This document shows, piece by piece, positions 1-32,657 of a stretch of 64,000 nucleotides of DNA. Position 1 is the first letter of the stretch. Each line of letters opens with the position of its first letter. Origin of the DNA: a virus; the IMG/VR virus record IMGVR_UViG_3300044632_001319. One strand, 5' to 3'. The notes under the pieces are model-generated. The model worked only from the letters and a program-made list of their open reading frames with translations, had not been told where the DNA came from and did not search any database. Both the position numbers and the translations under genes were made by a program.

Positions 1-129
1 ATTTTAGGACTGCCAGGTCTTTTAGATCCAGGCGCGAATCCAGAAGATGAATTCGTTGCTGAACCACCTCAGTCAATACCTCCACTTTTAGTAAGACCAG
101 AAGAAAATTGGTCACCTCCTATGAGATAA
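1..129 (+). CDS. 3' end of a Pro-rich protein (partial), paralogue of 182..925
   Basis: Frame 1 reads ILGLPGLLDPGANPEDEFVAEPPQSIPPLLVRPEENWSPPMR*, matching the C-terminus IIAEPPPAPVEQTPEFLTRPGREWHPPMK of the convergent gene. Confidence 0.75.
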   Translation: MLGLPGLLDPGANPEDEFVAEPPQSIPPLLVRPEENWSPPMR

Positions 130-130
130 C

Positions 131-161
131 AACAAACCCCCTTACGGGGGTTTGTTTTTTT
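131..161. terminator. Intrinsic terminator between convergent genes, likely bidirectional
   Basis: AACAAACCCCC-TTAC-GGGGGTTTGTT hairpin followed by a T run. Confidence 0.85.
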
Positions 162-181
162 ATAAATGTGTATTTTTCAAC

Positions 182-925
182 TCATTTCATTGGCGGATGC
201 CATTCTCTTCCAGGCCTTGTTAAAAATTCTGGTGTTTGTTCTACAGGTGCTGGTGGTGGTTCAGCAATTATATCATCCGATTCATCATCTGCTGTTGCAT
301 CATATGCAAATGCACCGCCCAGAACAATTCCAATTGTTCCGAACAATTGTTTATATTTTTCCATGTCCGTGGGTGGAAATTGACCATCTAAGTCTCTTAT
401 GAAATTGTCATTGTTTTGAAAGAAACCATCTGGGAAAATATAACTACCATCTGGTTCAGGTCGAGGTATTTTTGTGCCGTCTAATATTCGCATTCCATTC
501 CCATCAATATATTGATAAATATAACCACCATCTCTAGTTTTTATAATTATTATATTTGAATTACCAGGCGTAACTAAAGTATCAATTATTTCGTGTTCTG
601 GCAAAACCCTATAAAATTTCGGAAATTGTTCGCGTAAACTATCATAAAGCGATCTTGACATATTCCTAGGGATCATAGTATTTAGGCTTCTTGCAGTATT
701 CCTCCAAATTCGAAGAAGGCGGCCGCCTTCCTCTGTATTCGCCATCCAATCACTTTGTGGTCTGCCTGGGAAATAACGATCCAAGCTTGGATACCTTCTA
801 CCATATGCTTGGCGTAAAAGTCTACCAATCAAACCGCCAGTGCCTTCATTCAATAACTGTGAATTTTCATTAATTATCTTACTTTTTAATACTCTTTTAT
901 ACGCTTCTTTTAAATTTCTGTTCAT
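182..925 (-). CDS. Hypothetical protein, candidate internal head protein
   Basis: ORF 182..940, probable start MNRNLKEAYKRVLKSKIINE; I/L-x-E motifs; hydrophobic helix and Pro-rich tail. Confidence 0.7.
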   Translation of the reverse strand: MNRNLKEAYKRVLKSKIINENSQLLNEGTGGLIGRLLRQAYGRRYPSLDRYFPGRPQSDWMANTEEGGRLLRIWRNTARSLNTMIPRNMSRSLYDSLREQFPKFYRVLPEHEIIDTLVTPGNSNIIIIKTRDGGYIYQYIDGNGMRILDGTKIPRPEPDGSYIFPDGFFQNNDNFIRDLDGQFPPTDMEKYKQLFGTIGIVLGGAFAYDATADDESDDIIAEPPPAPVEQTPEFLTRPGREWHPPMK

Positions 926-936
926 ATTATTTCCTT

Positions 937-1503
937 TCATTGTTGATTTAAAAATCTTGCGTGTGCTTCGGGATTATATCCACCCTGACTCCAATTATTT
1001 AGTTGTCGAGCAAGGTTGTCTCCATACTGACTGTTGTTATTGGTTCCACTTCTGAAGTTTCTTCCAAATGGAACACCAGTTAGATTTGAACTGTAATCAA
1101 AATCTTGTCTTCTGTTGTTTCCACTAAGATTCGAACTGTAATCAGAATCATCTCTTCTTCTAGTAGTCGATCTAAGATTGTTGTTCTGATCGTTGCTACG
1201 AATGAAACTGTCGTATGAATAGGGTGATCTTCTTACTCGTCCACCGTATGATGCGTTTCTTGTATCTCCAGCAACATTCATACCACGATACTGTTGCTGA
1301 TTGTATCTATCACCCATTGCTGGTGGTTTATACATTGGTCTTCTTGGTTGTAGTCTACCGTATGATTGTTGTTGTGGATTATACCCCATAGATGTGCTTT
1401 GTTGACCTCTTGGGTTATAATCTGCTGTCCCCGCTTTTGACAGCCAGAGACTGTCGGTTTCATTCAAAAGTATTCTTTTGATTGATTCGTTTAAACTTTC
1501 CAT
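937..1503 (-). CDS. Q/N/Y/R/G/S low-complexity protein, candidate internal head protein
   Basis: MESLNESIKRILLNE N-terminus; GGAGA SD; internal DYSSNL(S/T)G duplication. Confidence 0.75.
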   Translation of the reverse strand: MESLNESIKRILLNETDSLWLSKAGTADYNPRGQQSTSMGYNPQQQSYGRLQPRRPMYKPPAMGDRYNQQQYRGMNVAGDTRNASYGGRVRRSPYSYDSFIRSNDQNNNLRSTTRRRDDSDYSSNLSGNNRRQDFDYSSNLTGVPFGRNFRSGTNNNSQYGDNLARQLNNWSQGGYNPEAHARFLNQQ

Positions 1504-1556
1504 ATTATCTCCTATTATATTATATAGTTATATTTGTATATACGCCACAAGGTGGG

Positions 1557-1694
1557 TACTATCAACATCGGGGTACTATCAACAAATCGTTACTATCAAC
1601 CGTCCTGTGATATTATCAGACCATGCAACTTTCCATGGTCCGATAAATACTATCAACGCGACGCCCAGGGTCCGATAACGAAAGGACCGATAAC
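1557..1694. repeat. Repeat cluster 1 (TACTATCAAC x4; CCGATAA-type x4)
   Basis: TACTATCAAC at 1557, 1574, 1591, 1648; inverted repeat TTATCAGACCATG...CATGGTCCGATAA at 1613-1646; further CCGATAAC copies near 1672 and 1687. Confidence 0.9.
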
Positions 1695-1726
1695 AAAGTA
1701 TTTGTACAAATATCTTTCCCGAAGGC

Positions 1727-1755
1727 TTGCAATGTTTCAGATTTGTGATATCTTA
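1727..1755 (+). promoter_or_regulatory. sigma70-type promoter, leaderless
   Basis: TTGCAA...TATCTT with ATG at 1762 and no SD. Confidence 0.55.
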
Positions 1756-1761
1756 TACGCT

Positions 1762-2478
1762 ATGGCTACCTTCGCTCTTGCACAAGCTCCCGCGCGCACG
1801 ATTCCGATTCACTCTCCCGAAACTAGTTTCGTTCATTCCGAAGCCGAGGATATCGTCGGTGGTCTTTCGAAGCCGTCGAAGATGCCAGGCTGGAGTACGA
1901 GCATTTCCGCGAAGCGTTGCCATGTCGGTTCCGCTCTCCGCAAGGTGAAGGGTTCTACTTGCGAGAAGTGTTACGCTTGCAAGGGAATGTACAACTTCCC
2001 GAATGTGGTCGATGCAATGGAGCGCCGTTACAATGCGCTGTTCGATTCGCGCTGGGTGGCAGCAATGGCATTCGTGATCGGAAAGAAGTGCAAGAAGGTT
2101 GCGTACTTCCGTTGGCACGATTCGGGTGATTTGCAGTCGCTCTCGCATCTCATCAACATCGTGCAAGTGTGTACGATGACTCCGAATGTGCAGCACTGGT
2201 TGCCCACTCGCGAATACGCAATCGTTCGCAAGTACCGCGAAATGTTCGGTGAGTTTCCCGCGAATCTCACCGTGCGCGTTTCCGCTGCCATGCTCGACTC
2301 TGCTGCTCCGTCTGATTTCGAGATTACTTCGGAAGTCGCAACCGATGATTCGGCAATGAATCGCTCTCGAGCTCGTGGTGGTGTTGCGTGTGTTGCTCCT
2401 ACTCAGGACAACGAATGCCGCGATTGCCGTGCGTGTTGGGATCGCAATGTCGCAACCGTGACATACCACAAGCACTAA
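1762..2478 (+). CDS. Gp88-like phage protein (radical-SAM-like Cys motifs)
   Basis: LSKPSKMPG...C...CEKCYA, YFRWHDSGD, WLPTRE and C-terminal CxxCxxCW; start moved to MATF at 1762. Confidence 0.8.
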   Translation: MATFALAQAPARTIPIHSPETSFVHSEAEDIVGGLSKPSKMPGWSTSISAKRCHVGSALRKVKGSTCEKCYACKGMYNFPNVVDAMERRYNALFDSRWVAAMAFVIGKKCKKVAYFRWHDSGDLQSLSHLINIVQVCTMTPNVQHWLPTREYAIVRKYREMFGEFPANLTVRVSAAMLDSAAPSDFEITSEVATDDSAMNRSRARGGVACVAPTQDNECRDCRACWDRNVATVTYHKH

Positions 2479-2515
2479 TCACTTGACAGAAATACCCATT
2501 TGTGGTATAATACAC
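2479..2515 (+). promoter_or_regulatory. Early sigma70 promoter cassette, copy 1
   Basis: TTGACA-17-TATAAT with TG extension; 37 bp identical to 3417..3453. Confidence 0.9.
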
Positions 2516-2518
2516 ACC

Positions 2519-2806
2519 ATGACGAATCCACACATACTGAAACTGATGAACTTTCTCCGTGACTTCGCAGATGCGAACGCGGATTCGTTCGCTCCCGAGC
2601 AGATTGATTACTTGAATCAGGCAGCGGTTGCGATTGTCGTTCTCGACGAGGCGGTTGATAAACTTGTCAAGGAGCGCGACGATGCCTACGCGCAGATTGA
2701 CCGCTACAAGAATGGATACGAAGGCGGTTGCCATGTGTGTGAGGTTGTCGCGCTTCGCAATCAGGAACTTCTCAAGGAGCGCGACAATGCCCAAACGAAT
2801 CCTTGA
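2519..2806 (+). CDS. Hypothetical coiled-coil protein (leaderless)
   Basis: ATG 7 nt after the -10 box; KERDxA repeats; CxxC. Confidence 0.75.
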   Translation: MTNPHILKLMNFLRDFADANADSFAPEQIDYLNQAAVAIVVLDEAVDKLVKERDDAYAQIDRYKNGYEGGCHVCEVVALRNQELLKERDNAQTNP

Positions 2807-2987
2807 TCGTTTCGATTTGGAAGCAGAACGCGAAGGTGCAGCAGTAGTGAAGCACAATCGCACGATCTGCAAACCATTCGGAATCGGAAAGAAGATCACG
2901 AAGGAACGAAATGCTCGCGCAGACGGCGAAGCATTCATTGAACGACGAACCATCAAGCAATCATTCGCACAGACGAGGTACGCATGA
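2787..2987 (+). CDS. Small basic hypothetical protein
   Basis: MPKRILDRF start with AAGGAG SD; overlaps both neighbours. Confidence 0.6.
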   Translation: MPKRILDRFDLEAEREGAAVVKHNRTICKPFGIGKKITKERNARADGEAFIERRTIKQSFAQTRYA

Positions 2988-3400
2988 CCAACAACAACAT
3001 CAATCATCTTGACTACGAACTCCGCGCTGCTACCAAGCGCACCGATCTTCCCGATGACATCATCCGGCTGCTTGCGCGCGCTTACGGTGAGATCATTGCG
3101 AACGAAAGCACGATCTACCGCCTTGAGTCGCAGTACGGCGTTCAGTACGATAGGGCTGAGAAGATGATGAAGGAACGCGACGAAGCAAACGCAAACGCGA
3201 AACTGTACCGTGATGATCGGGACGAAGCACGGAAAGAGGTTTGCTTTCTCTCCGTGTTCGATCCCGAAGTTCCAAACGCGGACTACGAATACCACCAGCG
3301 CGAAGCTGCGATCAAGCGCGGATGGGAGTATCTCTTCTCATCGGAAGAGATGATGGACGCGGATGCGAACAACGAATACTTCAAGAAGAATCACCGCTAA
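2984..3400 (+). CDS. Hypothetical coiled-coil protein
   Basis: ATGA-coupled ORF with GAGG SD; ERDEA/DRDEAR repeats. Confidence 0.75.
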   Translation: MTNNNINHLDYELRAATKRTDLPDDIIRLLARAYGEIIANESTIYRLESQYGVQYDRAEKMMKERDEANANAKLYRDDRDEARKEVCFLSVFDPEVPNADYEYHQREAAIKRGWEYLFSSEEMMDADANNEYFKKNHR

Positions 3401-3416
3401 CGCGGTGGTTCTTTAT

Positions 3417-3453
3417 TCACTTGACAGAAATACCCATTTGTGGTATAATACAC
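3417..3453 (+). promoter_or_regulatory. Early sigma70 promoter cassette, copy 2
   Basis: Identical to 2479..2515. Confidence 0.9.
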
Positions 3454-3477
3454 GCACCCAAAGGAGGATTGCGTCCG

Positions 3478-3690
3478 ATGTGTAAGTGTTTCGACTGTGG
3501 CAATGAGATTCCCGCTGCGCGCCTCGAGTTTATTCCCGATACGGAATACTGCGTCGATTGCGCGGACAAGCACACTTTCAAGTCTGTTGCGCGAATCATC
3601 TACTCTCACAAGGCTGACTGTGAACTGTTCATTGCGCGTAGTCCCGAGGATGCGCGCCGTCTCAACCGCGAATACGCAAGGGCAAGGTAA
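3478..3690 (+). CDS. DksA/TraR-family C4 zinc-finger protein
   Basis: CFDCGNEIPAARLEFIPDTEYCVDC motif; AAGGAGG SD. Confidence 0.8.
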   Translation: MCKCFDCGNEIPAARLEFIPDTEYCVDCADKHTFKSVARIIYSHKADCELFIARSPEDARRLNREYARAR

Positions 3691-3693
3691 ACC

Positions 3694-3960
3694 ATGACAA
3701 AGAATCTCACACTTCATTCTCGCTACGGCGACAAGCGTACCGTGACTGCAAATGGTCACGGCATCTACACGATTGAGGGCAAGACGCACTACTACCGCGT
3801 TGGAATGGACGACGACAACACCAAGATCGGGTATTTCGATCCCGAAGGTGGACCGTTCATCAGCGTGGGTAGCGATTACGGATTCGGTACGATCACCGAA
3901 ATCTTCGTTGAGAAGTCAGAGGAAGGCAACTTCAAGATTCGCGTGGAGGTTGAGCAGTAA
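3694..3960 (+). CDS. Hypothetical protein
   Basis: ORF in tightly packed operon with matching codon usage. Confidence 0.7.
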   Translation: MTKNLTLHSRYGDKRTVTANGHGIYTIEGKTHYYRVGMDDDNTKIGYFDPEGGPFISVGSDYGFGTITEIFVEKSEEGNFKIRVEVEQ

Positions 3961-4202
3961 TGACACACAAGGAACACATGATTCGCTTTATTCAGGCTTT
4001 CCCCGAGAATGAGGATCTCTGCATTCTCGTCTTTAGTCGCGGTGATGCGGAGGGATTCCTTCCCGCGCTCCGAGAAGAGTCTGTTACCGATGCGGAGTGG
4101 GAACGCATTTGCGCGGACTTCAACAAGAACAAGCCCAGCGATGGCGACTGGGCAGACTTCGGGGATATCGTTTCCCGCAATCTCAAGGAGAGTGACGAAT
4201 GA
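3960..4202 (+). CDS. Hypothetical protein
   Basis: TAATG-coupled ORF. Confidence 0.7.
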   Translation: MTHKEHMIRFIQAFPENEDLCILVFSRGDAEGFLPALREESVTDAEWERICADFNKNKPSDGDWADFGDIVSRNLKESDE

Positions 4203-4393
4203 GCAGCAAGACACACACAATCATCGTGCTTTCGGACGGAGAAACTTGGAATACCATTTCGGGTTGCAGCATCATGGTCATCAGCGACGATCAGTTTCGT
4301 GATCTCTGCGACGACCGCATCTCTGCGAACGACCTGATTCCGATTACCGAAATCGGACTCCATGAGTTCGATGTGAAGGAGACTGACGAGTGA
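4199..4393 (+). CDS. Hypothetical protein
   Basis: ATGA-coupled, AAGGAG SD. Confidence 0.7.
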   Translation: MSSKTHTIIVLSDGETWNTISGCSIMVISDDQFRDLCDDRISANDLIPITEIGLHEFDVKETDE

Positions 4394-4848
4394 ACCAGGA
4401 TCTTGAAACCAAGCTCAGGAAGCGTTGGCCGAATCTGCTCAAGGATCAGACTTCGATTGAGTGCGGAGATGGTTGGTACGATCTCATCGACCTTGCGTGT
4501 CGTGCGATCAACTCCGAAATCACTTCCCGCGAGAACTACGAGCAGGTGAAGTACAACATCGTCGTCGCGCAGATCAAGGAGAAGTTCGGCGGACTGCGTT
4601 TCTACTACGATTCGTTCGCGGAGAGTGCTACCGTGGACAATCCCTACGATCTTCCCTCGACTGCGCGTGGACTTGGCATCGTTGACGGTGTGATTCGCAT
4701 GGCGGAACTCTACTCGTACCATGTGTGCGAGAACTGCGGCAACCGTGGCGACTGCGATGCATCTTCTAGACACCATCGCACCGAATGCATGGCGTGCAAT
4801 ACGATTCGTCGTGATGCGGAAGATGACCAGTACGGGCAAACGGCTTGA
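4390..4848 (+). CDS. Conserved phage hypothetical protein with Zn ribbon
   Basis: CGDGWYDLI...QIKEKFGGLRFY...CENCG...CMAC pattern, common in phages. Confidence 0.8.
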   Translation: MNQDLETKLRKRWPNLLKDQTSIECGDGWYDLIDLACRAINSEITSRENYEQVKYNIVVAQIKEKFGGLRFYYDSFAESATVDNPYDLPSTARGLGIVDGVIRMAELYSYHVCENCGNRGDCDASSRHHRTECMACNTIRRDAEDDQYGQTA

Positions 4849-4877
4849 CAAGAAATACCATTTGTGGTACAATACAC
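4845..4877 (+). promoter_or_regulatory. Early sigma70 promoter cassette, copy 3 (variant)
   Basis: TTGACAAGAAATACCATTTGTGGTACAATACAC, near-identical to copies 1 and 2. Confidence 0.85.
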
Positions 4878-4900
4878 AACTCACACAAGGAGATCGCGTA

Positions 4901-5233
4901 ATGAGCAAGCGTAAGAACAAGAAGAACAAGACTGAAACTGTGACGTATACTGCGCCTGATCGTGCTACACTGGAGTCTGCGTTGGATTCGATGTCCGAGG
5001 AGTGCGAGAGTTATCGCATTCATGTCGAGAATCTGCGCGAGGACATTCGCGCTGCATACGAGGAGATGGATACGCTCAAGGAGCGCAAGCGTGAGCTCGA
5101 GCGTGCGGTTATCTCGCAGTCCATTGAGCTTGCTCAGCTGCGTGGAATGCTGCAATGGGAGGATGACAAGAAGCGCGTGAATGCTGCGCGCAAGGCGGAG
5201 TGGATTCGTGCGGAGGATCACAATGACTTCTGA
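4901..5233 (+). CDS. Coiled-coil hypothetical protein
   Basis: AAGGAG SD, start MSKRKNKK. Confidence 0.7.
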   Translation: MSKRKNKKNKTETVTYTAPDRATLESALDSMSEECESYRIHVENLREDIRAAYEEMDTLKERKRELERAVISQSIELAQLRGMLQWEDDKKRVNAARKAEWIRAEDHNDF

Positions 5234-5432
5234 ATCCATCCCGAAGGCAAATCGTGATGCGATCAAGCAGTCGATTCTCGAAATGCTTGACGAACTCACG
5301 GATTGTGAATCAGTCGAGCTCGAGGACTTCATCGTGAACCATTGCGACAATGCGAGTTTCATTGACGACAATGGCGACTACCCGAATCTGTTTCGGATCT
5401 TCGTGACTGGTCGCCAGTCAGACTGTGAATGA
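5223..5432 (+). CDS. Acidic hypothetical protein
   Basis: GGAGG SD before ATG at 5223. Confidence 0.65.
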   Translation: MTSESIPKANRDAIKQSILEMLDELTDCESVELEDFIVNHCDNASFIDDNGDYPNLFRIFVTGRQSDCE

Positions 5433-5788
5433 TCGACCACTACCCCGAAGATGAGAAACGAATATCATTCGATGAACTCTCCGCTCGAGCGCGTGAAATC
5501 GACAAGCAAGTCAAGAAACAGCGAAAGCAAGACGAACGCGCTGTACTAGAACTCGAACGCATCCGCGAACAAGATCGCAAGCAATGGGAATACACAAACG
5601 GTGGACGAAACCCCGTTGGTGATGACCCAATCGCACTTGACGGTGATGAGCACAAGATGTACGAGAATCTTGGAATCAAAGACATGGAAACTGAGAACAA
5701 CGAATCCTCCAACAGCATCATTCCATTGATGCTCTCCGTGATCGCCATTGCGTGTTTCGTGTACCTTGTCAGCAAGTACGGATCCTGA
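5429..5788 (+). CDS. Hypothetical protein with C-terminal transmembrane anchor
   Basis: IIPLMLSVIAIACFVYLV tail. Confidence 0.7.
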   Translation: MIDHYPEDEKRISFDELSARAREIDKQVKKQRKQDERAVLELERIREQDRKQWEYTNGGRNPVGDDPIALDGDEHKMYENLGIKDMETENNESSNSIIPLMLSVIAIACFVYLVSKYGS

Positions 5789-5790
5789 AC

Positions 5791-6639
5791 ATGAGCAAGA
5801 GCAAGAAGTACCCTCGTTTCTCCCCCACTCGCACCGACAATCATCCGATTCTTGGAAAGGTCAAGGTTTACGATATCGGGAAGTATCCCACTCCCGATGA
5901 TGATGGATGCCAAACTTCGTTCTTTCACAACAATGCGGAAGTGGACAATGCGCGCCAGTTCGGGTTCAAGATGTTCAATACCAGCGTCGAAGCATTCGCT
6001 GCGTATCAGCGTCAGACACTCGCAGCAAAGGCAGGAATCGCACCGCCTACGGGTAAGATGATTCGTTGGATCGTCAAGTCCACCAATGGTCGCACAGTCA
6101 ATCGTTGGGGATACGAAACTGGGATTGCAGACTGCTCTCCGATTGCTCGAATCAAGGCAACGATTCTGTCGTGTCCTCAAGTCACGCGCTGGTATGTGGA
6201 TTATGTCCACAGCAACAATCTCAAGATGTTCTCCGCGAACAGCATGGAGATGTTTCTCGACCACGCGGAGGGCGAAGAGTACGAGAATGTGAACGGCAAG
6301 TATTTCGATTCGTTCTCTTGTGCAAGCAATACCACCGTGGATGGTTCGCTTCGCGTTCGACTCATGCAAATCGACCTCACGGGTACGCAGTACGACAATC
6401 TCGCTTCGGTGATTGATGACGGTTGCGTGTGGGCAGACAACATCAAACTTCGCCTGGGGCAGAAGGTGACTGCCAACGATGACATGATGATGGCGAATGA
6501 TCTGCACCGTGGCAATATTGCTCTGTGGAAGGGCAATCTCGTTGTGATCGACTTCGGATACCATATCGCGGTTCCCGAATACCGCGACTACGACAGACTG
6601 GAAATCATCACCAACCATTGGGGAAAGGTGGCAGTGTAA
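5791..6639 (+). CDS. Protein kinase-like (APH/RIO-type fold) protein
   Basis: FGFKMF (candidate catalytic Lys), DLHRGN catalytic loop, IDFG metal-binding motif. Confidence 0.7.
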   Translation: MSKSKKYPRFSPTRTDNHPILGKVKVYDIGKYPTPDDDGCQTSFFHNNAEVDNARQFGFKMFNTSVEAFAAYQRQTLAAKAGIAPPTGKMIRWIVKSTNGRTVNRWGYETGIADCSPIARIKATILSCPQVTRWYVDYVHSNNLKMFSANSMEMFLDHAEGEEYENVNGKYFDSFSCASNTTVDGSLRVRLMQIDLTGTQYDNLASVIDDGCVWADNIKLRLGQKVTANDDMMMANDLHRGNIALWKGNLVVIDFGYHIAVPEYRDYDRLEIITNHWGKVAV

Positions 6640-6917
6640 TGGACGGAAGCAGGACTCTCATCGTTCGCATTGATCTTCCCGACGATCAGCGAGACAACTT
6701 CCTCGAGCTGATGGAAGAGGGATTCAATCGTGGAAGCATCGACGGGTACTACATTCTCACGGACAATACCATTCCCGTCACACACAACGAACCGCATCTC
6801 CAGTACGAAACTCGTCTTGGTCGCGCAATCTCCGCGATTCAGCGTGATGAAGTCCTCATCGCAGGACTCGCAGACGCAGACCCCGAAACGGGTATCGAAT
6901 ACGGGGATCTCACTTGA
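6639..6917 (+). CDS. Hypothetical protein
   Basis: TAATG-coupled start MDGSRTL. Confidence 0.65.
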   Translation: MDGSRTLIVRIDLPDDQRDNFLELMEEGFNRGSIDGYYILTDNTIPVTHNEPHLQYETRLGRAISAIQRDEVLIAGLADADPETGIEYGDLT

Positions 6918-7107
6918 ACGCGCATACCGTAATCGACATCATCGGTGGTCTGTTCGTGGGATTGGTTGTGTTTCTGATGATCTACACCTTCGATAATGAA
7001 ATGGGAAAGAAGAAATGATTCTCTTTCTCGTCGCATCAGCATCGTTCATCGGATGCACAATCGCAATCCTTGTGATGGTATCACAAGAGAACAAAGACAG
7101 GGAATGA
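6914..7107 (+). CDS. Two coupled tiny single-TM proteins (6914..7018 and 7015..7107)
   Basis: Hand translation: (L)NAHTVIDIIGGLFVGLVVFLMIYTF... and MILFLVASASFIGCTIAILVMV...; fill the operon gap with TTGA/ATGA overlaps. Confidence 0.5.
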
Positions 7108-7114
7108 ATACCAC

Positions 7115-7477
7115 ATGAAAGAGCACTTTCTTTCCGCTAGCATCACGGCACACAGTCATTTCAATACCGCACCCGATTCGTTTCAGGGATTCGTGTTTCG
7201 CGCAGACGGAGATTGTGTCAGGATTCGTGAGGTGTTTTGGGACGGCAAGAACAAGAGGATGATGAGTTCGTGTCAGCGTGTGGTGTATTGTCCGCCAAGT
7301 GGTGTTGTCGATACCAACTTACGATCCGAATGGTACTTCACCGCAGATGGCGTAATGGGGTACTCGTTGGAATACGGACGCAGAATCTACCTTTCTCTCA
7401 AGAATCACTACAAATACCGTCCCGATGACATTCAGAAGGTCTACGATAAGGAAGCGATTCTTGAATACGCTAGCTGA
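7115..7477 (+). CDS. Hypothetical protein
   Basis: 120-aa ORF in operon. Confidence 0.7.
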   Translation: MKEHFLSASITAHSHFNTAPDSFQGFVFRADGDCVRIREVFWDGKNKRMMSSCQRVVYCPPSGVVDTNLRSEWYFTADGVMGYSLEYGRRIYLSLKNHYKYRPDDIQKVYDKEAILEYAS

Positions 7478-7808
7478 CGAAATACAAGCACTTTCCGACG
7501 ATACTGTGGCATACACCGTGCCACCGTATACGCCATTCGCAAATGGATTTCCTGCTGTTCTTGAGAACAGTCCAAATCGGTTTGCTCTTACGAATGGTGA
7601 CGGATGGGAAGTCTCTTTCTTCTACTACCCATTCGCAGCAGAGGCATTCATCGTCGGATTCCGTGACGGCAAACATCGTAGGCACACTAGTGATGCCATT
7701 CGCAATACCAACATGATCGTGGAATACGATCAATGGATTCCCGTCGAACTCGCGCGTGACTACTGGCGTTTCCTTGTCAAAGACTGCGGATGCAAGAGGA
7801 TCAAATGA
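7461..7808 (+). CDS. Hypothetical protein
   Basis: ORF 7425..7808; probable TTG start at 7461 behind AAGGAAG. Confidence 0.6.
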   Translation: MNTLADEIQALSDDTVAYTVPPYTPFANGFPAVLENSPNRFALTNGDGWEVSFFYYPFAAEAFIVGFRDGKHRRHTSDAIRNTNMIVEYDQWIPVELARDYWRFLVKDCGCKRIK

Positions 7809-8095
7809 CCAACGCATTTCTTCCATCTTCTACTCACTACTACAATGAGACAGAGTACAAGATCACTCTGTCATATGCGAACGATCACAAGTACGACTTC
7901 ATTCTCTTTCACCCACAGAAGGATAAGAAGGTTCATGCGCTGATCGAAACGACCAAAGATGCGCGCATTCTCTCCATCGAATACGACCTGATTCAAGATC
8001 GGTTTCTTCCATGTGAGAACGATACGGTTCATGTATTTCCGAATCGGACAATCGCAATGCGGTATTTAGAGAAGTTTCGAAAAGCTTTCAAATAA
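7805..8095 (+). CDS. Hypothetical protein, last gene of the operon
   Basis: GAGG SD, ATGA overlap. Confidence 0.65.
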   Translation: MTNAFLPSSTHYYNETEYKITLSYANDHKYDFILFHPQKDKKVHALIETTKDARILSIEYDLIQDRFLPCENDTVHVFPNRTIAMRYLEKFRKAFK

Positions 8096-8176
8096 CAAAT
8101 AAAGAGGAAAGAAGAGAGAAGAGAAGAGTACATCAAAGACTGTATGTATGTGAGTGGAAATACAGTCTCAATAGCA

Positions 8177-8222
8177 TGGGAATAGGTGAGGAATGGGTGA
8201 GGAATGGGTGAGGAATGGGTGA
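8177..8222 (+). repeat. 11-bp tandem repeat (GGGTGAGGAAT), about 3.5 copies
   Basis: ...GGGAATAGGTGAGGAATGGGTGAGGAATGGGTGAGGAATGGGTGA. Confidence 0.85.
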
Positions 8223-8375
8223 CTAGGAAGGTGCGGAATAAGGTATCAGGGAATGTGAGGCTAAGCCCATTCCCCACCAACCACAATGATTCACAATCGC
8301 TCACAATAAACCACAACCCGCACAACAAACCGTAAATAACAATAAATCATTCAGAGATTGACAATTACACAGGGA

Positions 8376-8549
8376 TACTATCAACAATCAATACTATCAA
8401 CGGGGTATGGTCAGCCTAGTAGAGTTAGACAGCCTTTGTGGTCTAGCGCAATAATAGTCCGATAACATGGTCCGATAATAACTATCAACAGACCGGCTAT
8501 GCTGGATATTATCAGACCATGTGAGAGTGATAACCATGGGTCGATAACG
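8376..8549. repeat. Repeat cluster 2 (TACTATCAAC / GTCYGATAA)
   Basis: TACTATCAAC at 8376 and 8392, AACTATCAAC at 8480; GTCCGATAA twice at ~8457-8478; GATATTATCAGACCATG identical to the copy at 1609; GGTCGATAAC at ~8539. Confidence 0.9.
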
Positions 8550-8579
8550 TGATATTCGCGGGAATATCGTTCAAGGGGC

Positions 8580-8608
8580 TTGCAATGCGGATCGACCTAT
8601 GATATACT
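8580..8608 (+). promoter_or_regulatory. sigma70 promoter, leaderless
   Basis: TTGCAA-17-TATACT, ATG 6 nt downstream. Confidence 0.8.
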
Positions 8609-8614
8609 ATATGC

Positions 8615-8899
8615 ATGAGCAACAAGACTCTCAACGGCATGAACAAGTCCGCCTCCAACAACCGCAAGGGTTCGCGTGGTCCGCGTCCGATTCAGACGGT
8701 CGCACAGCTTCGTGAGAACCTGCTCCGTGATGCGCTCGCGCGTGAGATCAAGAAGATCGACCGCAAGATCGCGGTGAATACGCGCAAGCGTTCCGCTGCT
8801 CAGGTTCGCGTCAACGATGCGAATGCTGCGCTCGAGAACCTGAACCGCATTCGTGCGGAGTTCCTTGCGGAGTCGAATCTCGCCCCTAAGAAGGCCTGA
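8615..8899 (+). CDS. Basic coiled-coil protein, paralogue of 10157..10417
   Basis: NKSASN...GPRPIxTVAQLRExLLR...KKIDRK shared between the two. Confidence 0.8.
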   Translation: MSNKTLNGMNKSASNNRKGSRGPRPIQTVAQLRENLLRDALAREIKKIDRKIAVNTRKRSAAQVRVNDANAALENLNRIRAEFLAESNLAPKKA

Positions 8900-8915
8900 T
8901 TCGGTTCGCGTGCGA

Positions 8916-8985
8916 GATTCGATCATCCAAATGGAAGGAGCACCCATATCGGGTAGCAATGCGGGTTCGAATCCCGCTCGAATCT
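8916..8985 (+). ncRNA. tRNA-like element with aberrant anticodon arm
   Basis: Acceptor GATTCGA/TCGAATC, D-like TCC-AAATGGAA-GGA, canonical T arm GCGGG-TTCGAAT-CCCGC, anticodon arm only ACCC-ATATC-GGGT. Confidence 0.65.
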
Positions 8986-9059
8986 TTCGGAGTCTTTCAA
9001 AGGTAAGAGGAGAATCCCCTCCCGCTCCATTTCAGTCAAGTCAAACGAAAGAGATCAAC

Positions 9060-9506
9060 ATGAGCAACAACAACAACACTCTCGTCCGTCCCGATGGTTC
9101 CGTGAACTGTGACAATCCGCGCGTGGTCGCTGCGCTGGTGGATAGCATCGGCATGATCCTCACTCGCACCTTTCAGGATCTCAAGGCGAACCCTGAGCTC
9201 CTCGACGCGATTCCCGATGACTCGAAGGCGGATCTCGACTGCGTTCTCCAGACGCTTCGCATGATTCGCAACAACATCGGAGTCGATACCGATTGGTTCA
9301 ACGAGAACCAGGCCAACATGGTTCCCACGATCATGCGGGAGTCGCGTGAGACTTCGGAGCGTCGTGCTGAAACCATCGTCAAGGCGATGCTGGCTGCGGG
9401 ATTCCCGATGGACATGGTTCCGCCTGAGTTCCGCCCCAAGCCGGATGCTGCCACTACTGCGGATGCGCTGCTCGACTCGCTCCGCGCCGATGGAATCATC
9501 GGCTAA
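9060..9506 (+). CDS. Hypothetical protein
   Basis: Start MSNNNNTLVRP within ORF 8853..9506; strongly biased codon usage. Confidence 0.75.
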   Translation: MSNNNNTLVRPDGSVNCDNPRVVAALVDSIGMILTRTFQDLKANPELLDAIPDDSKADLDCVLQTLRMIRNNIGVDTDWFNENQANMVPTIMRESRETSERRAETIVKAMLAAGFPMDMVPPEFRPKPDAATTADALLDSLRADGIIG

Positions 9507-9526
9507 ACAATCGTTGCTCTCTCTTG

Positions 9527-9560
9527 GCCCCCCGTAAGTAATACGCTTACGGGGGGCTTT
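9527..9560 (+). terminator. Intrinsic terminator
   Basis: GCCCCCCGTAAG-TAATACG-CTTACGGGGGGC then TTT. Confidence 0.8.
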
Positions 9561-9603
9561 ACATTTGATGTTTATGTAAATATCAATTGTCAATATTGAC
9601 ATT

Positions 9604-9646
9604 TACTATCAACAAATGATACTATCAACGCGGGGGGGTTATCGGA
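9604..9646. repeat. Repeat cluster 3, at the convergence point of early transcription
   Basis: TACTATCAAC at 9604 and 9620; GTTATCGGA (reverse of TCCGATAAC) at ~9638. Confidence 0.85.
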
Positions 9647-9657
9647 TCAGAGTGCGA

Positions 9658-9903
9658 CTAGCGAATCGGGTGCGGAGTCTTCAATCGGGTGAGCTCCTCG
9701 AGCCGATTCGCTGCAATGCGCTTGACGCGCTCGAGCTCGATCGCCTTGAGCTGATGGCGCTCGCGTCGATCCATGATCTCTTGCCGCAACCGCTCGAGCT
9801 CGAGCTTCATTGCGGTGATCTCATTCGCGAGATCCTGCGCGATGTCTTCGTTGTTGGATGCCATGAGGAACGCGATGGTATTGTTCGTTGCGGGAGTGTT
9901 CAT
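9658..9903 (-). CDS. Coiled-coil hypothetical protein
   Basis: 81-aa ORF with heptad pattern. Confidence 0.7.
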   Translation of the reverse strand: MNTPATNNTIAFLMASNNEDIAQDLANEITAMKLELERLRQEIMDRRERHQLKAIELERVKRIAANRLEELTRLKTPHPIR

Positions 9904-9972
9904 GTTCAGATGCTCGTTTGGTCGTTGATGTTGAGAAAGTCGATGTCGGTTGCGGGATTCGGTTCGTATCGG

Positions 9973-10155
9973 TCACCCATCGTCATCCTCGTCTTCCGTT
10001 TCGCCCTCTGGCGCTTCGATGTCGTTGAAGTCTCCGAAATCGCCGTCGATGTCGGAGAGATCGAAATCGTCATCGTCGTGAGGATTGTAGCGCGAGTCAC
10101 GATCCCCATTCCCGTAGTACCAGCCGTCGTCGTCGTTGTTGTGTGGGTATGCCAT
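9973..10155 (-). CDS. Small very acidic protein
   Basis: GGAGG SD before MAYPHNNDDDG; Asp/Glu-rich. Confidence 0.65.
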   Translation of the reverse strand: MAYPHNNDDDGWYYGNGDRDSRYNPHDDDDFDLSDIDGDFGDFNDIEAPEGETEDEDDDG

Positions 10156-10156
10156 G

Positions 10157-10417
10157 TTAGTTCGCCTCCGCAGCGTATTCCGCGCGGACCTCGCGCAGAC
10201 CGTCCAGCTGCGTCTGCGTGCTGAGGAGCTTGTCACGCAGCAGCGCCTCGCGGCGGATGAGCTTCGTCATCTTGCGGTCGATCTTCTTCATCTCCTTGAT
10301 CATCATCTCGCGCAGCAGCTTCTCACGCAGCTGGGCGACGGTCACGATCGGACGCGGACCCTTGCGACCCTTGTTGGAGGCGGACTTGTTTGCACCGTTG
10401 TTGCTCTTGTTGCTCAT
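10157..10417 (-). CDS. Basic coiled-coil protein, paralogue of 8615..8899 (leaderless)
   Basis: MSNKSNNGANKSASNK...; preceded on the - strand by TTGACA-17-TAGAAT. Confidence 0.8.
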   Translation of the reverse strand: MSNKSNNGANKSASNKGRKGPRPIVTVAQLREKLLREMMIKEMKKIDRKMTKLIRREALLRDKLLSTQTQLDGLREVRAEYAAEAN

Positions 10418-10490
10418 GTGTGTCATTCTACCTTAGATCGTTGTTGTTGTCAAGCCGGCCGTTTACGATTGTGGACTGATTGTGGATAAG

Positions 10491-10889
10491 TCAGGCCTTG
10501 GGATTCGCGAGGAGCGTATCGTAGATCCCCTGCGCAGTCATGGTATCCCATCCCTTCTCTTCAACGAACTCGATGCAGCGCGTAAGGTACGCGGTGATTT
10601 CGTTCGGCGTAACCTTGCCCATCGACGGATTCCATCCGTTGCCCTTGCCCAGGCGACCGATGCGCTCCTGCTTGCCGAAGAACTTGTCATAGCCGGCAAC
10701 GCGCGTGAGGAACCCGAGCTCGGAAGTCACGACCGTTTCCATGCGGGAAAGGGCCATGTCTCCACTCTGCCAGTCAGCGCGCACTTCCGCGATGAAGTCG
10801 ATGAGCGGGAGCGCGCGGTACAGACGGGCGTGCTTCTGAGCCATGGTTTCGGGGCGGGTCGCGTTGGCGTTGTTGGTCTTGCTGTTCAT
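10491..10889 (-). CDS. Hypothetical protein (leaderless)
   Basis: Preceded on the - strand by TTGCAT-17-TATACT with ATG 6 nt downstream. Confidence 0.75.
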   Translation of the reverse strand: MNSKTNNANATRPETMAQKHARLYRALPLIDFIAEVRADWQSGDMALSRMETVVTSELGFLTRVAGYDKFFGKQERIGRLGKGNGWNPSMGKVTPNEITAYLTRCIEFVEEKGWDTMTAQGIYDTLLANPKA

Positions 10890-11120
10890 GCTATAAGTAT
10901 ATGGTATGACGCGCCAAATGCAAGCCCCTTGACGAGATTTCTTGGTAGATTTGTGCGGCCTATATCGGTCATCACACAGTGAAATCAGGTTAGGAGGATG
11001 TTAGGGGTGTCAGGGGCTAGCAATTTTCCCCACCATACTCAAAAAGTCCCCAAAGTTCATCCCCCCCCCCCATTCTCTATAATAAATCGAATCCCTCGAA
11101 TATCTAAAATTTTCGCGGTA

Positions 11121-11128
11121 TATAAATA
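11121..11128 (+). promoter_or_regulatory. T4-type late promoter
   Basis: TATAAATA 18 nt upstream of ATG 11147. Confidence 0.75.
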
Positions 11129-11146
11129 CTTTCTATAAAGTCGCAT

Positions 11147-12142
11147 ATGAAACCCTTTAAACAATTCATCATCGAATCGGCAAAGAATAAATTTGACTTC
11201 AAGGATAATTCACTCTTTGTTGTTAATTCAAATAAGAAATTACACATTGTGCACACACCAGAAGAAGATAAAGGATTTGATGTCTTCATAGAACATGATG
11301 ATGTATTACCACAGTTCAACTACGCAATGAACGATAATGATACTACTGAAGAAAATAAACATAAACCACGACCTTTATCTTTCGGAAGAATCGATCATAA
11401 GAATAAGATGTTCTATATTATTAGTCAAGCAAAGGGTCAACCAGAAGGTAAAGAACAATATGGTCGTCCAGACTATACTCTTATGCGTAAAAAAGATGTA
11501 GAAAATGATGTCTATAATCGGTTGCATACTGCAAGAGCAGTTCATGAAAAACATCCTGGATATAGAATCGAAGTTTCTGGTCATCCTAATCATATGGTAT
11601 TGTCATTACCCGAGTATGAAAAATTTTTGATGTCGCAGATGGATACCGAATTAAAAGAGTCTGCAATTGAACCAAAAGTAGATCCACCCGATCAATGGCC
11701 TACAGCATTTGATCCGAATTCTGGTCAATGGAGTGATCCTATGCAGTCTCCAAATGATTCATATGATCAAACACAACCATATATACCCCCGAGTATTGTC
11801 GATATATGGTATGCGATTCCTGAGTGGATGAGAGATAATATTCCTCCAAATCATATACCGTGGGTCACCAAAGAATTATGGAAAATACTTGAATTCTATT
11901 ACGGCCCACCACAAAACTGGGATCCCATTCTTGGATGGAACCCATGGCAAAATGTGCCATCGGGAATGAATCCATGGCATACTCCTTTTTGGATGACTCC
12001 TGCCTTTAGGGGAGCAGTGAAGGAATTGTGGGGAAGATATCAACGTTGGAGGCAAGGACCAAAACCACAACCATTCTCTCCTCTTCAATATCCAGAATCA
12101 ATTGATCCAGAGTATCAAGTAACACCAGGTTGGTGGGCATAA
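11147..12142 (+). CDS. Candidate internal head protein with Pro/Trp-rich C-terminal half
   Basis: MKPFKQFIIES resembles T4 IP capsid-targeting sequences; internal LKE junction. Confidence 0.75.
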   Translation: MKPFKQFIIESAKNKFDFKDNSLFVVNSNKKLHIVHTPEEDKGFDVFIEHDDVLPQFNYAMNDNDTTEENKHKPRPLSFGRIDHKNKMFYIISQAKGQPEGKEQYGRPDYTLMRKKDVENDVYNRLHTARAVHEKHPGYRIEVSGHPNHMVLSLPEYEKFLMSQMDTELKESAIEPKVDPPDQWPTAFDPNSGQWSDPMQSPNDSYDQTQPYIPPSIVDIWYAIPEWMRDNIPPNHIPWVTKELWKILEFYYGPPQNWDPILGWNPWQNVPSGMNPWHTPFWMTPAFRGAVKELWGRYQRWRQGPKPQPFSPLQYPESIDPEYQVTPGWWA

Positions 12143-19911: not shown

Positions 19912-19989
19912 TGACTAGGGAAGAACTAATACTATCAATATTGTGCTACATCTCACTATTATAAAAATTAGAATTCTTGACCAAGACCC

Positions 19990-20018
19990 TTGACAAAGCA
20001 CACCCCTTATGGTATACT
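19990..20018 (+). promoter_or_regulatory. sigma70 promoter for the leader RNA/tRNA unit
   Basis: TTGACA-17-TATACT. Confidence 0.8.
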
Positions 20019-21741: not shown

Positions 21742-21789
21742 ATATTTTTATTTATCAAAAGATTCTTCCAAGAATGTCGTCAAGGGGGC

Positions 21790-21817
21790 TTGACAACCAT
21801 CCATTTTCTGATATACT
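21790..21817 (+). promoter_or_regulatory. sigma70 promoter
   Basis: TTGACA-16-TATACT. Confidence 0.8.
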
Positions 21818-21824
21818 ATATGCA

Positions 21825-21875
21825 GTTAACCGACAGCACCCGCAACCTGTGCGAGTCGGATGGTTAAAAGGTTGC
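21825..21875 (+). promoter_or_regulatory. Structured 5' leader with predicted pseudoknot
   Basis: Nested stems CCGAC/GTCGG and GCAC/GTGC; loop GCAACCT complementary to downstream AGGTTGC. Confidence 0.5.
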
Positions 21876-21905
21876 AAAAGTTTAGAAAGGTTTCAGAAAA
21901 TCGTT

Positions 21906-31518: not shown

Positions 31519-31525
31519 GATTACC

Positions 31526-32639: not shown

Positions 32640-32657
32640 AATATTTAGGAGAAAATA

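What the first reader, a model, noticed from the sequence alone, without database searches (positions are those of the whole stretch)
1557..9646. Three non-coding clusters of two GATA-core motifs punctuate the early island
Seen in sequence: motif A (TACTATCAAC) is always on the + strand and phased, at 1557/1574/1591 (17-bp period), 1648, 8376/8392 and 9604/9620 (16 bp), with variants at 8480 and 19930. Motif B ((CATG)GTCYGATAA) occurs in both orientations and forms inverted pairs; the 17-mer GATATTATCAGACCATG is identical in clusters 1 and 2. The clusters lie at the left GC boundary, in the long gap before 8615 and at the transcription convergence point. Inference: arrays of protein-binding sites. 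Candidates are replication-origin iterons, partition/anchoring sites, recombination sites, or injection/packaging signals analogous to the T5 injection-stop region. They do not look like promoters or CRISPR repeats.
Basis: partly seen in the sequence, partly recalled or inferred. Interest (0 to 1): 0.7.

Follow-up and report, generated by a model that had tools for sequence, protein, structure and literature searches.

The report
Control-site arrays at phage early promoters
The three repeat clusters are real: they are arrays of two short protein-binding DNA words that a family of uncultured T4-like phages places upstream of its early promoters, so they most likely control early transcription rather than replication or packaging.

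Summary
Observation confirmed. TACTATCAAC (A) occurs 9 times exactly against 0.17 expected; 8 copies lie on the + strand in three short non-coding clusters. GTCCGATAA-type words (B) occur 10 times in the same clusters.

The interpretation as protein-binding arrays holds, but the listed functions are not the best fit. Clusters 1 and 2 lie directly upstream of two near-identical, weak-(-35), leaderless sigma70-type promoters (ATG 1762 and 8615). The nearest B ends 32-33 bp before the -35 hexamer in both.

Relatives from IMG/VR and metagenomes use the same words only in their GC-rich early islands. One is a collinear 108-kb contig. Across 53 predicted leaderless promoters:
- B sits 28-35 bp, and consensus DnaA boxes exactly 16 or 27 bp, upstream of -35.
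- Proximal A sites show 10.5-11 bp phasing.
- Sites favour non-consensus promoters (27/32 against 9/21).
- Word arrangement is reshuffled even between close strains, while the words stay fixed.

Best reading (0.55): upstream control sites for an unidentified DNA-binding protein or proteins. Cluster 3, at an operon convergence, is unexplained by this.

Main rival (0.15): an iteron/DnaA-box origin.

The scan noted the same words in another window of this genome (e1-5883642). New variant of a known kind; interest moderate.

The parts
1557..1600 (+). Cluster 1, distal array: three A words (TACTATCAAC) at a 17-bp period, co-oriented with the downstream gene
   Evidence: Equivalent A-A(-A) arrays lie upstream of the GP88 gene in L194, L199, L207, L109 and L198.
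1609..1694 (.). Cluster 1, proximal part: B(-) 1609-1625, B 1633-1646, A 1648-1657, B 1665-1679, B-like 1684-1694. The B-A composite GTCCGATAA-n-TACTATCAAC is at 1638-1657.
   Evidence: The same composite occurs in G002, G005, G006 and G007.
1727..1764 (+). Promoter P1727: TTGCAA, 16 nt, TATCTT, 7 nt, then ATG 1762. The predicted mRNA is leaderless and encodes the GP88-family (PF17338) protein at 1762-2478.
8376..8401 (+). Cluster 2, distal pair of A words (16-bp period), preceded by TTGACAAT at 8358
   Evidence: repeat D2 against 9604-9658
8456..8548 (.). Cluster 2, proximal part: B 8456-8466, B 8469-8479 abutting the A variant at 8480-8489, B(-) within the 17-mer at 8505-8521, B-like 8538-8548
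8561..8617 (+). Promoter P8580: an upstream GAATATCGTTCAAGGGGC element, then TTGCAA, 17 nt, TATACT, 6 nt and ATG 8615. The leaderless gene (8615-8899) encodes a 94-aa protein with a basic arm and one long helix.
9526..9558 (+). Intrinsic terminator ending the 8615-9506 operon, 45 bp before cluster 3
9587..9648 (.). Cluster 3, at the convergence of two operons: palindrome TTGTCAATATTGACA 9587-9601, A 9604-9613, A 9620-9629, B(-) 9638-9648
   Evidence: The same palindrome lies next to A words in L105 and L198. Cluster-3 equivalents exist in L169, L142, L173, L181 and L198.
10425..10489 (-). Promoter P10453 (TTGACA, 17 nt, TAGAAT, 7 nt, ATG 10417) of the paralogous basic-protein gene. A consensus DnaA box TTATCCACA (10489-10481) lies 27 bp upstream of the -35 hexamer.
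19930..20018 (+). A variant TACTATCAAT, 50 bp upstream of the promoter TTGACA-17-TATACT (19990-20018) that precedes tRNA-Lys and tRNA-Gly

Best explanation
The clusters are cis-regulatory DNA. They are arrays of binding sites for one or more sequence-specific DNA-binding proteins that control the host-RNA-polymerase-dependent early promoters of the GC-rich island.

Shown:
1. Words A (TACTATCAAC) and B (GTCCGATAA) belong to a vocabulary shared by a family of uncultured T4-like phages.
2. In that family the words are confined to non-coding DNA of the early island.
3. They sit at fixed, helically phased distances upstream of sigma70-type, mostly leaderless promoters.
4. They are preferentially at promoters that deviate from consensus.
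5. In this window, clusters 1 and 2 are the upstream regions of two near-identical promoters: GGCTTGCAATG, then TATCTT or TATACT, then 6-7 nt and ATG. The nearest B is centred at about -72, further B-A composites lie behind it, and a co-oriented A array lies 125-195 bp upstream of the -35 hexamer.

Inferred:
1. The bound protein or proteins act mainly as activators of these weak promoters, in the manner of a class I activator contacting polymerase from about -72. This would create a delayed-early class beside the perfect-consensus promoters at 2483, 3421, 4845 and 10453, which have no A or B sites. Repression or shut-off by the same sites is the less likely alternative.
2. The binder is unidentified. 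It could be an early phage protein, for example the conserved HTH_39 winged-helix protein at 21906-22187, which is expressed from a strong promoter of the same type. It could also be a host factor.
3. Cluster 3 (A-A-B between two converging operons, each led by a paralogous basic-protein gene) has no promoter to serve. It is provisionally read as the same protein acting as a boundary, roadblock or loop anchor.
For: Non-randomness.

Promoter adjacency in the window: the B end lies 33 bp (P1727) and 32 bp (P8580) before the -35 hexamer, and the two promoters are near-identical.

Relatives:
- G005 is collinear with the window (60-85% amino-acid identity over window 15.5-64 kb). All 11 of its ACTATCAAC copies lie in its GC-rich first 5.3 kb.
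- Most G005 early promoters (TTGCAT or TTGCTT, 16 nt, CATACT, 6 nt, ATG) carry a B 30-35 bp before the -35 hexamer, with an A next to it.
- G006 and G007 (35-60% amino-acid identity) carry the exact composite GTCCGATAAnnnTACTATCAAC 28-35 bp from the -35 hexamer at five promoters.
- DnaA-box words lie exactly 16 or 27 bp upstream of -35 in relatives, and at 27 bp at P10453 in the window.

Statistics:
- Proximal A distances show a 10.5-11 bp period (Rayleigh R about 0.5, p about 5e-4).
- Sites occur at 27/32 non-consensus against 9/21 perfect-consensus promoters (Fisher p = 0.0025).

Turnover: in an alignment of six GP88 upstream regions only the A words, a DnaA box and the promoter are conserved, while the arrangement between them is reshuffled, even in a strain whose GP88 is 96% identical.

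Specificity to phage: the composite is not used in bacterial genomes (3 hits in 596 Gb). By my estimate that is at or below what chance would give.

Another window of the same genome is reported to carry the same words around a VWA gene, partly between divergent -35 boxes (note e1-5883642; not checked here).
Against: 1. No binding protein has been identified.
   - The 8615 family is a disordered basic arm plus one long helix, and it is absent from G006, which has composites.
   - Identity of the winged-helix protein does not track the A variant. G005 is 58% identical and uses the same A word; G009 is 70% identical and uses ACTATCATC.
2. Cluster 3, and similar A sites between converging terminators in G005, G002 and L212, have no promoter to regulate.
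3. Site orientation relative to the promoter is not constant between lineages.
4. The promoters are predictions from consensus, and their leaderless starts are inferred.
5. The promoters pooled in the statistics are partly homologous, so the p-values are optimistic.
6. Activation cannot be told from repression by sequence.
Confidence: 0.55

Rival explanations
1. Replication origin or origins. The A arrays are iterons for a phage initiator. Together with AT-rich DNA and host DnaA boxes they form an origin, possibly coupled to the adjacent early promoter, as T4 origins are coupled to promoters (from memory: oriF and oriG are promoter plus unwinding element; oriE has iterons and RepEB).
For: - Phased direct repeats.
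- In relatives the GP88-upstream region reads: A array, 70-100 bp of AT-rich DNA, an A word plus palindrome, a DnaA box, then the promoter.
- L137 and L212 carry 5-12 consensus DnaA boxes next to A pairs, in L212 at a convergence point with no promoter.
- A long non-coding, strand-asymmetric purine/G-rich tract lies ahead of cluster 2 and is conserved in relatives.
- The cumulative GC-skew minimum lies at about 2 kb, next to cluster 1.
Against: - There are too many loci: three clusters here plus more about 82 kb beyond the window's end, and nine intergenic regions within 5.3 kb in G005.
- B and DnaA-box words sit at fixed distances from -35 hexamers, with helical phasing, which is the signature of promoter control.
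- No initiator gene is evident. GP88 models as an alpha/beta enzyme-like fold with two CxxCxxC motifs, not a DNA-binding protein.
- The window has only one DnaA box.
- GC skew in such phages also follows transcription direction.
Confidence: 0.15
2. Purely architectural sites. A-binding protein arrays mark the borders of early transcription units. They would act as roadblocks or insulators behind terminators, or as loop anchors, without direct activation of promoters.
For: - A words lie just behind terminators or between converging terminators in the window (cluster 3), G001, G002, G005 (1524, 2394) and L210.
- Clusters flank whole units: 8376 and 9604 flank the 8615-9506 operon (repeat D2), and the VWA gene is flanked on both sides.
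- A arrays of two or more are co-oriented with the downstream gene in every case examined.
Against: - It does not explain the fixed B and DnaA-box distances to -35 hexamers or the bias towards weak promoters.
- In compact intergenic regions, nearness to terminators is unavoidable.
Confidence: 0.12
3. Recombination sites or cassette borders. The conserved words mediate shuffling of early-gene cassettes, either through a site-specific recombinase or passively by homologous exchange. The passive route would resemble the promoter-early stem-loop (PeSL) elements of T4-type phages (from memory).
For: - Island gene content differs strongly between otherwise collinear relatives: only about 3 island ORFs are shared with G005, against 60-85% identity elsewhere.
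- Regulatory regions are mosaics of the same words.
- Direct repeats flank the 8615-9506 unit.
Against: - No recombinase was seen among the island ORFs scanned.
- The words are too short and too variably arranged for a defined crossover site.
- Passive exchange would be a consequence of conserved regulatory DNA, not its function.
Confidence: 0.07
4. Injection-stop, packaging (pac) or partition signals.
For: - Cluster 1 lies at the island boundary.
- The T5 injection-stop region is said to combine repeats, palindromes and DnaA boxes (from memory).
- Several IMG/VR contigs end in A arrays.
Against: - Contig ends at arrays are what repeated sequence does to assemblies.
- The sites are multi-copy and promoter-linked.
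- The phage has T4-type late promoters and T4-like morphogenesis genes, which suggests headful packaging.
- No par genes were seen.
Confidence: 0.04

Closest known systems
Upstream activator or operator arrays of phage early and middle promoters: phi29 p4 sites at A2b/A2c/A3, and T4 MotA boxes at middle promoters (from memory)
   Same: Short specific DNA words are placed at fixed distance from sigma70-type core promoters of a phage early region. They probably define a temporal class, and they are associated with promoters whose -35 deviates from consensus.
   Different: The words lie at about -72 and further upstream, not at -30 like MotA boxes. There are two or three different non-palindromic words in variable number and orientation. 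No MotA, AsiA or p4 homologue was found (no positive control). The binder is unknown.
Global operator networks of plasmids: RK2 KorA and KorB operators, some next to promoters and some far from any promoter (from memory)
   Same: Two kinds of operator words are scattered over one control region. Most are promoter-proximal and a few are remote from any promoter, as cluster 3 is.
   Different: The Kor operators are palindromes bound by known dimers, and KorB is a ParB-type partition protein. Here the words are non-palindromic and no ParB-like gene was seen.
Iteron-type origins: T4 oriE with RepEB; plasmid origins with iterons, an AT-rich region and DnaA boxes next to an autoregulated rep gene (from memory)
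   Same: Phased direct repeats; AT-rich DNA and DnaA boxes in relatives; a promoter immediately downstream.
   Different: There are many loci per genome. No Rep-like gene is present: the downstream GP88 models as an enzyme-like fold. The 16-17 bp period is 1.5 helical turns rather than the 2 turns usual for iterons.
PeSL (promoter-early stem-loop) cassettes of T4-type phages (from memory)
   Same: Conserved intergenic modules of terminator plus early promoter separate small variable early genes in a hyperplastic region.
   Different: PeSLs are not described as carrying extra specific binding words. Here the conserved element is the A/B word set.
DnaA as a transcription factor at phage promoters, for example lambda pR (from memory)
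   Same: Consensus DnaA boxes lie at fixed positions upstream of early promoters: 16 or 27 bp before -35 in relatives, and 27 bp at P10453 in the window.
   Different: This applies to one promoter in this window. A and B are not DnaA boxes, and no phage DnaA-domain-IV protein was found in five relatives.

Membership tests
Promoter-upstream activator/operator sites | Fixed distance between the site and the core promoter | tested here: met
   The B end lies 32-33 bp before the -35 hexamer at both window promoters, and 28-35 bp (or 22-24 bp) at 14 further promoters in relatives. DnaA boxes lie at exactly 16 or 27 bp.
Promoter-upstream activator/operator sites | Helical-face dependence | tested here: met
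   Proximal A distances are periodic at 10.5-11 bp (R about 0.5, p about 5e-4) but not at 8, 10 or 13 bp. The promoters are not phylogenetically independent.
Promoter-upstream activator/operator sites | Words conserved while their arrangement turns over between relatives | tested here: met
   Alignment A2 of six GP88 upstream regions.
Promoter-upstream activator/operator sites | A cognate DNA-binding protein | tested here: inconclusive
   An HTH_39 winged-helix gene is conserved in G005, G006, G007 and G009, but its identity does not track the A variant. The 8615 family is a basic arm plus a single helix and is absent from G006.
Promoter-upstream activator/operator sites | Every site serves a promoter | tested here: not met
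   Cluster 3 and the A sites between converging terminators in G005, G002 and L212 have no convincing promoter.
Iteron-type replication origin | Tandem direct repeats at one locus or a few loci | tested here: not met
   Direct repeats are present, but at three clusters here plus more elsewhere in the genome, and at nine intergenic regions in G005.
Iteron-type replication origin | Adjacent AT-rich unwinding region and DnaA boxes | tested here: inconclusive
   Present in relatives (L109, L137, L207, L212, L194). In the window there is one DnaA box, at P10453, and none in the clusters.
Iteron-type replication origin | An initiator (Rep) gene next to the iterons | tested here: not met
   GP88 models as an alpha/beta partial-barrel fold with two CxxCxxC motifs and no DNA-binding fold. 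No Rep family was found among the island ORFs scanned.
Iteron-type replication origin | Replication starts there | not testable with these tools
   This needs marker-frequency analysis or nascent-strand mapping.
T5-type injection-stop signal / pac site | A single locus at the border of first-entering DNA or at the packaging start | tested here: not met
   The sites are multi-copy and promoter-linked. Genome ends are not available for this window.
ParB/parS-type centromere | Palindromic parS sites with parA/parB genes | tested here: inconclusive
   A and B are non-palindromic. No par gene was found among the ORFs scanned, but the whole genome is not held.
CRISPR array | Identical repeats of 24-48 bp with unique spacers of similar length | tested here: not met
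   The words are 10 bp long with 6-7 bp gaps, at most 3 in a row.

The most novel reading that the evidence does not exclude
The A/B word modules, together with precisely placed host DnaA boxes, are the cis half of an undescribed activator-dependent 'delayed-early/middle' transcription system in a T4-like lineage in whose partial relatives no MotA or AsiA was detected. The larger arrays may double as promoter-coupled replication origins of the T4 oriE type.
Probability: 0.25. Interest if true: 0.7.

Novelty: new variant of a known kind. Interest (0 to 1): 0.5.

Why it matters
T4-like phages are the reference system for timed phage transcription. Outside the T-even group, how the step between immediate-early and late genes is controlled is largely unknown.

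Here a widespread uncultured aquatic lineage shows a defined, conserved and easily testable control vocabulary. It has two 9-10 bp words plus DnaA boxes, attached to leaderless early promoters in a compositionally distinct island. That gives concrete targets: which protein reads the words, whether host DnaA is co-opted, and whether transcription and replication initiation are coupled.

It also has two practical uses. The words mark early islands in metagenomic contigs. They also explain why assemblies of these phages break there.

Tried and rejected
1. Close relatives among deposited phages: megablast of 1-12000 and 30000-50000 found nothing.
2. Whole genome of the window: not held.
3. Literature search for the words: only primer coincidences. 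Search for PF17338/GP88: nothing useful.
4. A as a promoter:
   - TACTAT resembles a -10 hexamer, and cluster 3 can be read as TTGACA-18-TACTAT. That arrangement is not conserved in relatives.
   - T4-type late promoters here are TATAAATA.
   - A single-subunit-polymerase promoter reading fails because, in G006 and G007, the composite would point antisense into converging genes.
5. IHF, NtcA, CtrA, LexA and Fis consensus sequences, compared by eye from memory: no fit.
6. GP88 as a Rep-like binder of A: rejected on the predicted fold.
7. The 8615/10417 paralogues as the universal binder: weakened. No hit to solved structures or families.
8. Host chromosomal use of the B-A composite: 3 hits in 596 Gb, which by my estimate is no more than chance.
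9. Phage-encoded DnaA domain IV: none in five relatives.
10. MotA and AsiA: none found, but the control genomes did not ring, so this is inconclusive.
11. Known RNA families in 1-12000: none credible.
12. Many of the 120 metagenome hits for A-A pairs are unrelated tandem repeats and were set aside.

Full report
OBSERVATION

The 10-mer TACTATCAAC (word A) occurs 9 times exactly in the 64-kb window, against a mean of 0.17 in shuffles.
- Eight copies are on the + strand, at 1557/1574/1591 (17-bp period), 1648, 8376/8392 and 9604/9620 (16-bp period).
- The ninth (33333, - strand) lies inside a long ORF and is probably chance.
- One-mismatch variants lie at 8480 and 19930.

GTCYGATAA (word B) occurs 7 times against 1.23 expected. 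Allowing two mismatches to GGTCCGATAAC, ten copies lie in the three clusters, including one on the - strand in cluster 3 (9638-9648). The 17-mer GATATTATCAGACCATG is identical at 1609 and 8505. The clusters lie where the finding says: at the GC step, in the 520-bp gap before 8615, and between the terminator at 9526-9558 and the converging - strand genes.

WHAT SURROUNDS THE CLUSTERS

The 1.7-11 kb stretch is a 52% GC island in a 36% GC genome. The genome has T4-like features: gp32, a gp6-type baseplate wedge, TATAAATA late promoters, tRNAs and a tmRNA.

The island has two kinds of sigma70-type promoter.
- Perfect or near-perfect TTGACA-17-TATAAT promoters lie at 2483, 3421, 4845 and 10453(-). 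None has an A or B site.
- A second type reads GGCTTGCA(A/T), 16-17 nt, TATCTT or TATACT, then 6-7 nt and ATG. It occurs at 1727, 8580 and 10923(-). These would give leaderless mRNAs.

Clusters 1 and 2 are the upstream regions of the first two promoters of the second type. The nearest B ends 33 and 32 bp before the -35 hexamer (centre about -72). Further B words and a B-A composite (GTCCGATAA-n-TACTATCAAC) follow, and the co-oriented A array lies 125-195 bp upstream.

P1727 drives a PF17338 (GP88) gene. P8580 drives a 94-aa protein whose model is a disordered basic arm (KGPRPI) plus one 59-residue helix. Its paralogue at 10417(-) is driven by P10453, which has a consensus DnaA box 27 bp upstream of its -35 hexamer. 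Cluster 3 lies exactly between these two converging paralogue-led operons. It consists of the palindrome TTGTCAATATTGACA, two A words and one B word.

RELATIVES

Deposited phages gave nothing. Pattern scans did.

- G005, an IMG/VR contig of 108 kb, is collinear with the window at 60-85% amino-acid identity over 48 kb. It starts inside a GC-rich island. All 11 of its ACTATCAAC copies lie in its first 5.3 kb, at nine intergenic regions.
- G006, G007 and G009 are more distant (35-60% identity for G006 and G007). They also have GC-rich islands (0.50-0.62) with GP88 and a kinase-like gene. G006 and G007 carry the exact composite between a terminator and a leaderless promoter. G009 has B plus the A variant ACTATCATC.
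- About twenty metagenome contigs are close relatives of the island itself (GP88 80-96% identical; the 8615 protein up to 100% identical).

In the relatives the same words recur. Some add consensus DnaA boxes (TTATCCACA) and the palindrome seen in cluster 3. The first 40 kb of a 68.9-kb contig (G004) show A kept while its partner word is replaced by a different inverted repeat.

An alignment of six GP88 upstream regions shows conservation only of two tandem A words, the DnaA box (replaced in the window) and the promoter. Everything between is reshuffled, even in a strain with 96% identical GP88.

A note from another window of this genome reports the same words on both sides of a VWA gene about 82 kb beyond this window's end (e1-5883642). 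I could not check that.

TESTS OF FUNCTION

I predicted leaderless promoters in the window and 21 related island sequences and measured distances to the words.
- B ends 28-35 bp (a few at 22-24 bp) before the -35 hexamer.
- In the composite, A lies 12 bp further out. That puts the two words about one helical turn apart.
- DnaA boxes lie at exactly 16 or 27 bp, again one turn apart.
- The nearest A site of 28 promoters is periodic at 10.5-11 bp (R about 0.5, p about 5e-4) and not at 8, 10 or 13 bp.
- Words are present at 27 of 32 non-consensus promoters but only 9 of 21 perfect-consensus ones (p = 0.0025).

These promoters are partly homologous, so the p-values are optimistic, but the pattern is consistent.

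Fixed distance, helical phasing, preference for weak promoters and conservation of words with turnover of arrangement are the signature of transcription-factor sites, most simply of an activator contacting polymerase from about -72. That is my best reading (0.55). Whether the sites activate or repress cannot be decided from sequence.

WHO BINDS

This is not resolved.
- GP88 models as an alpha/beta, partial-barrel, enzyme-like fold with two CxxCxxC motifs. It is unlikely to be a DNA binder.
- The protein at 5752 has kinase motifs (DLHRGN...IDFG).
- The 8615 family always lies next to dense clusters, but it is absent from G006 and has no recognisable DNA-binding fold.
- An HTH_39 winged-helix protein (21906-22187) is conserved in G005, G006, G007 and G009. 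It is expressed from a strong promoter of the island type with no A or B sites, so it could be an immediate-early regulator. However, its sequence identity does not track the A variant.
- The letter-perfect conservation of the words across distant relatives would also fit a host factor.
- The composite itself is not used in bacterial genomes.
- No phage DnaA domain IV was found, so the DnaA boxes presumably bind host DnaA.

RIVALS

Origin (0.15). Relatives show an A array, AT-rich DNA and DnaA boxes ahead of the GP88 promoter. L137 and L212 hold 5-12 DnaA boxes beside A pairs, in L212 with no promoter. A conserved purine/G-rich tract precedes cluster-2-type arrays. T4 origins are promoter-linked (from memory). 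Against this stand the number of loci, the promoter-locked spacing and the lack of an initiator gene.

Boundary, roadblock or loop-anchor role (0.12). This would explain cluster 3 and the A sites behind terminators, but not the spacing rules. It may well coexist with the main reading.

Cassette recombination (0.07). The island is hyperplastic, but no recombinase was seen.

Injection-stop, pac or partition signals (0.04). These do not fit a multi-copy, promoter-linked element. Contigs that end in A arrays are what repeats do to assemblies.

COMPARISON AND VERDICT

The element works like the upstream operator or activator arrays of phage and plasmid control regions (phi29 p4 sites, T4 MotA boxes, RK2 Kor operators; all from memory). 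It shares no words, geometry or known protein with any of them. No MotA or AsiA was detected in five partial relatives (no positive control).

It is a new variant of a known kind: a family-specific control vocabulary for leaderless early promoters in the GC-rich island of an uncultured T4-like lineage. Interest is moderate (0.5). It would be higher if the modules prove to be a MotA-independent middle-mode system that uses host DnaA, or promoter-coupled origins.

Noticed in passing
window 1727-1764, 2483-2521, 8580-8617, 10453-10415 (-), 10923-10887 (-): Five island promoters are followed by ATG only 6-7 nt after the -10 hexamer, so their mRNAs would be leaderless. Two others (3421, 4845) have ordinary Shine-Dalgarno leaders. 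The same leaderless layout dominates the islands of G005, G006, G007 and the metagenome relatives.
   Followed up: partly
window 10481-10489 (-); L105, L123, L137, L181, L194, L198: Consensus DnaA boxes (TTATCCACA) lie exactly 16 or 27 bp upstream of the -35 hexamer of early promoters. L137 and L212 carry tandem arrays of 5-12 boxes. This suggests host DnaA is co-opted by this phage family, either as a transcription factor or for titration or an origin.
   Followed up: partly
window 8101-8345; L104, L105, L191, L198: A purine/G-rich, C-poor tract with short tandem repeats ends in GGCTAAGCC and is followed by GTAAATAA(A)C. It is conserved in composition and position ahead of cluster-2-type A arrays in relatives. 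A leftward transcript would be C-rich and G-poor there, like a Rho loading site.
   Followed up: partly
window 9587-9601; L105 about 2040-2060; L198 about 12540-12560: The perfect palindrome TGTCAATATTGACA lies next to A words in several relatives. Its half-site loosely resembles the reverse complement of A. It is a likely site for a dimeric binder.
   Followed up: no
window 5791-6639 (+): A conserved island protein, also present in G006, G007, L109, L181 and L198, carries protein-kinase-like motifs (DLHRGN...IDFG). This recalls early phage kinases such as T7 gp0.7 (from memory).
   Followed up: no
window 1762-2478 (+); L004-L083: The GP88 (PF17338) protein models as an alpha/beta partial barrel with two CxxCxxC motifs. 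Homologues at about 50% identity are common in IMG/VR contigs, and homologues at 31-44% identity occur in Pelagibacter, Roseobacter, Caulobacter and Acinetobacter phages. In many of the IMG/VR contigs the gene is preceded by lineage-specific short tandem repeats such as (CAAGCN)n abutting the -35 hexamer.
   Followed up: partly
window 8615-8899 (+) and 10157-10417 (-); L181, L198: Paralogous small proteins (basic arm KGPRPI plus one long helix) head two converging operons with an A cluster between them. This layout is conserved in at least three relatives.
   Followed up: partly
window 21785-21905: The winged-helix gene has a promoter (GGGGCTTGACA-17-TATACT-atatgc) almost identical in its -10 and start region to P8580, but with a consensus -35 hexamer, a 77-nt leader and no A or B words.
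   Followed up: no
G001 right end, G002 left end, L104, L119, L191 ends: Several public contigs of this phage family end inside A arrays, so the repeated clusters appear to break metagenome assemblies at the early island.
   Followed up: no
window 10960-10970 (-): A degenerate B-like word (GACCGATATAG) lies about 75 bp upstream of the ATG of the third GGCTTGCAT promoter (gene 10889-10491). It may be a decayed site.
   Followed up: no
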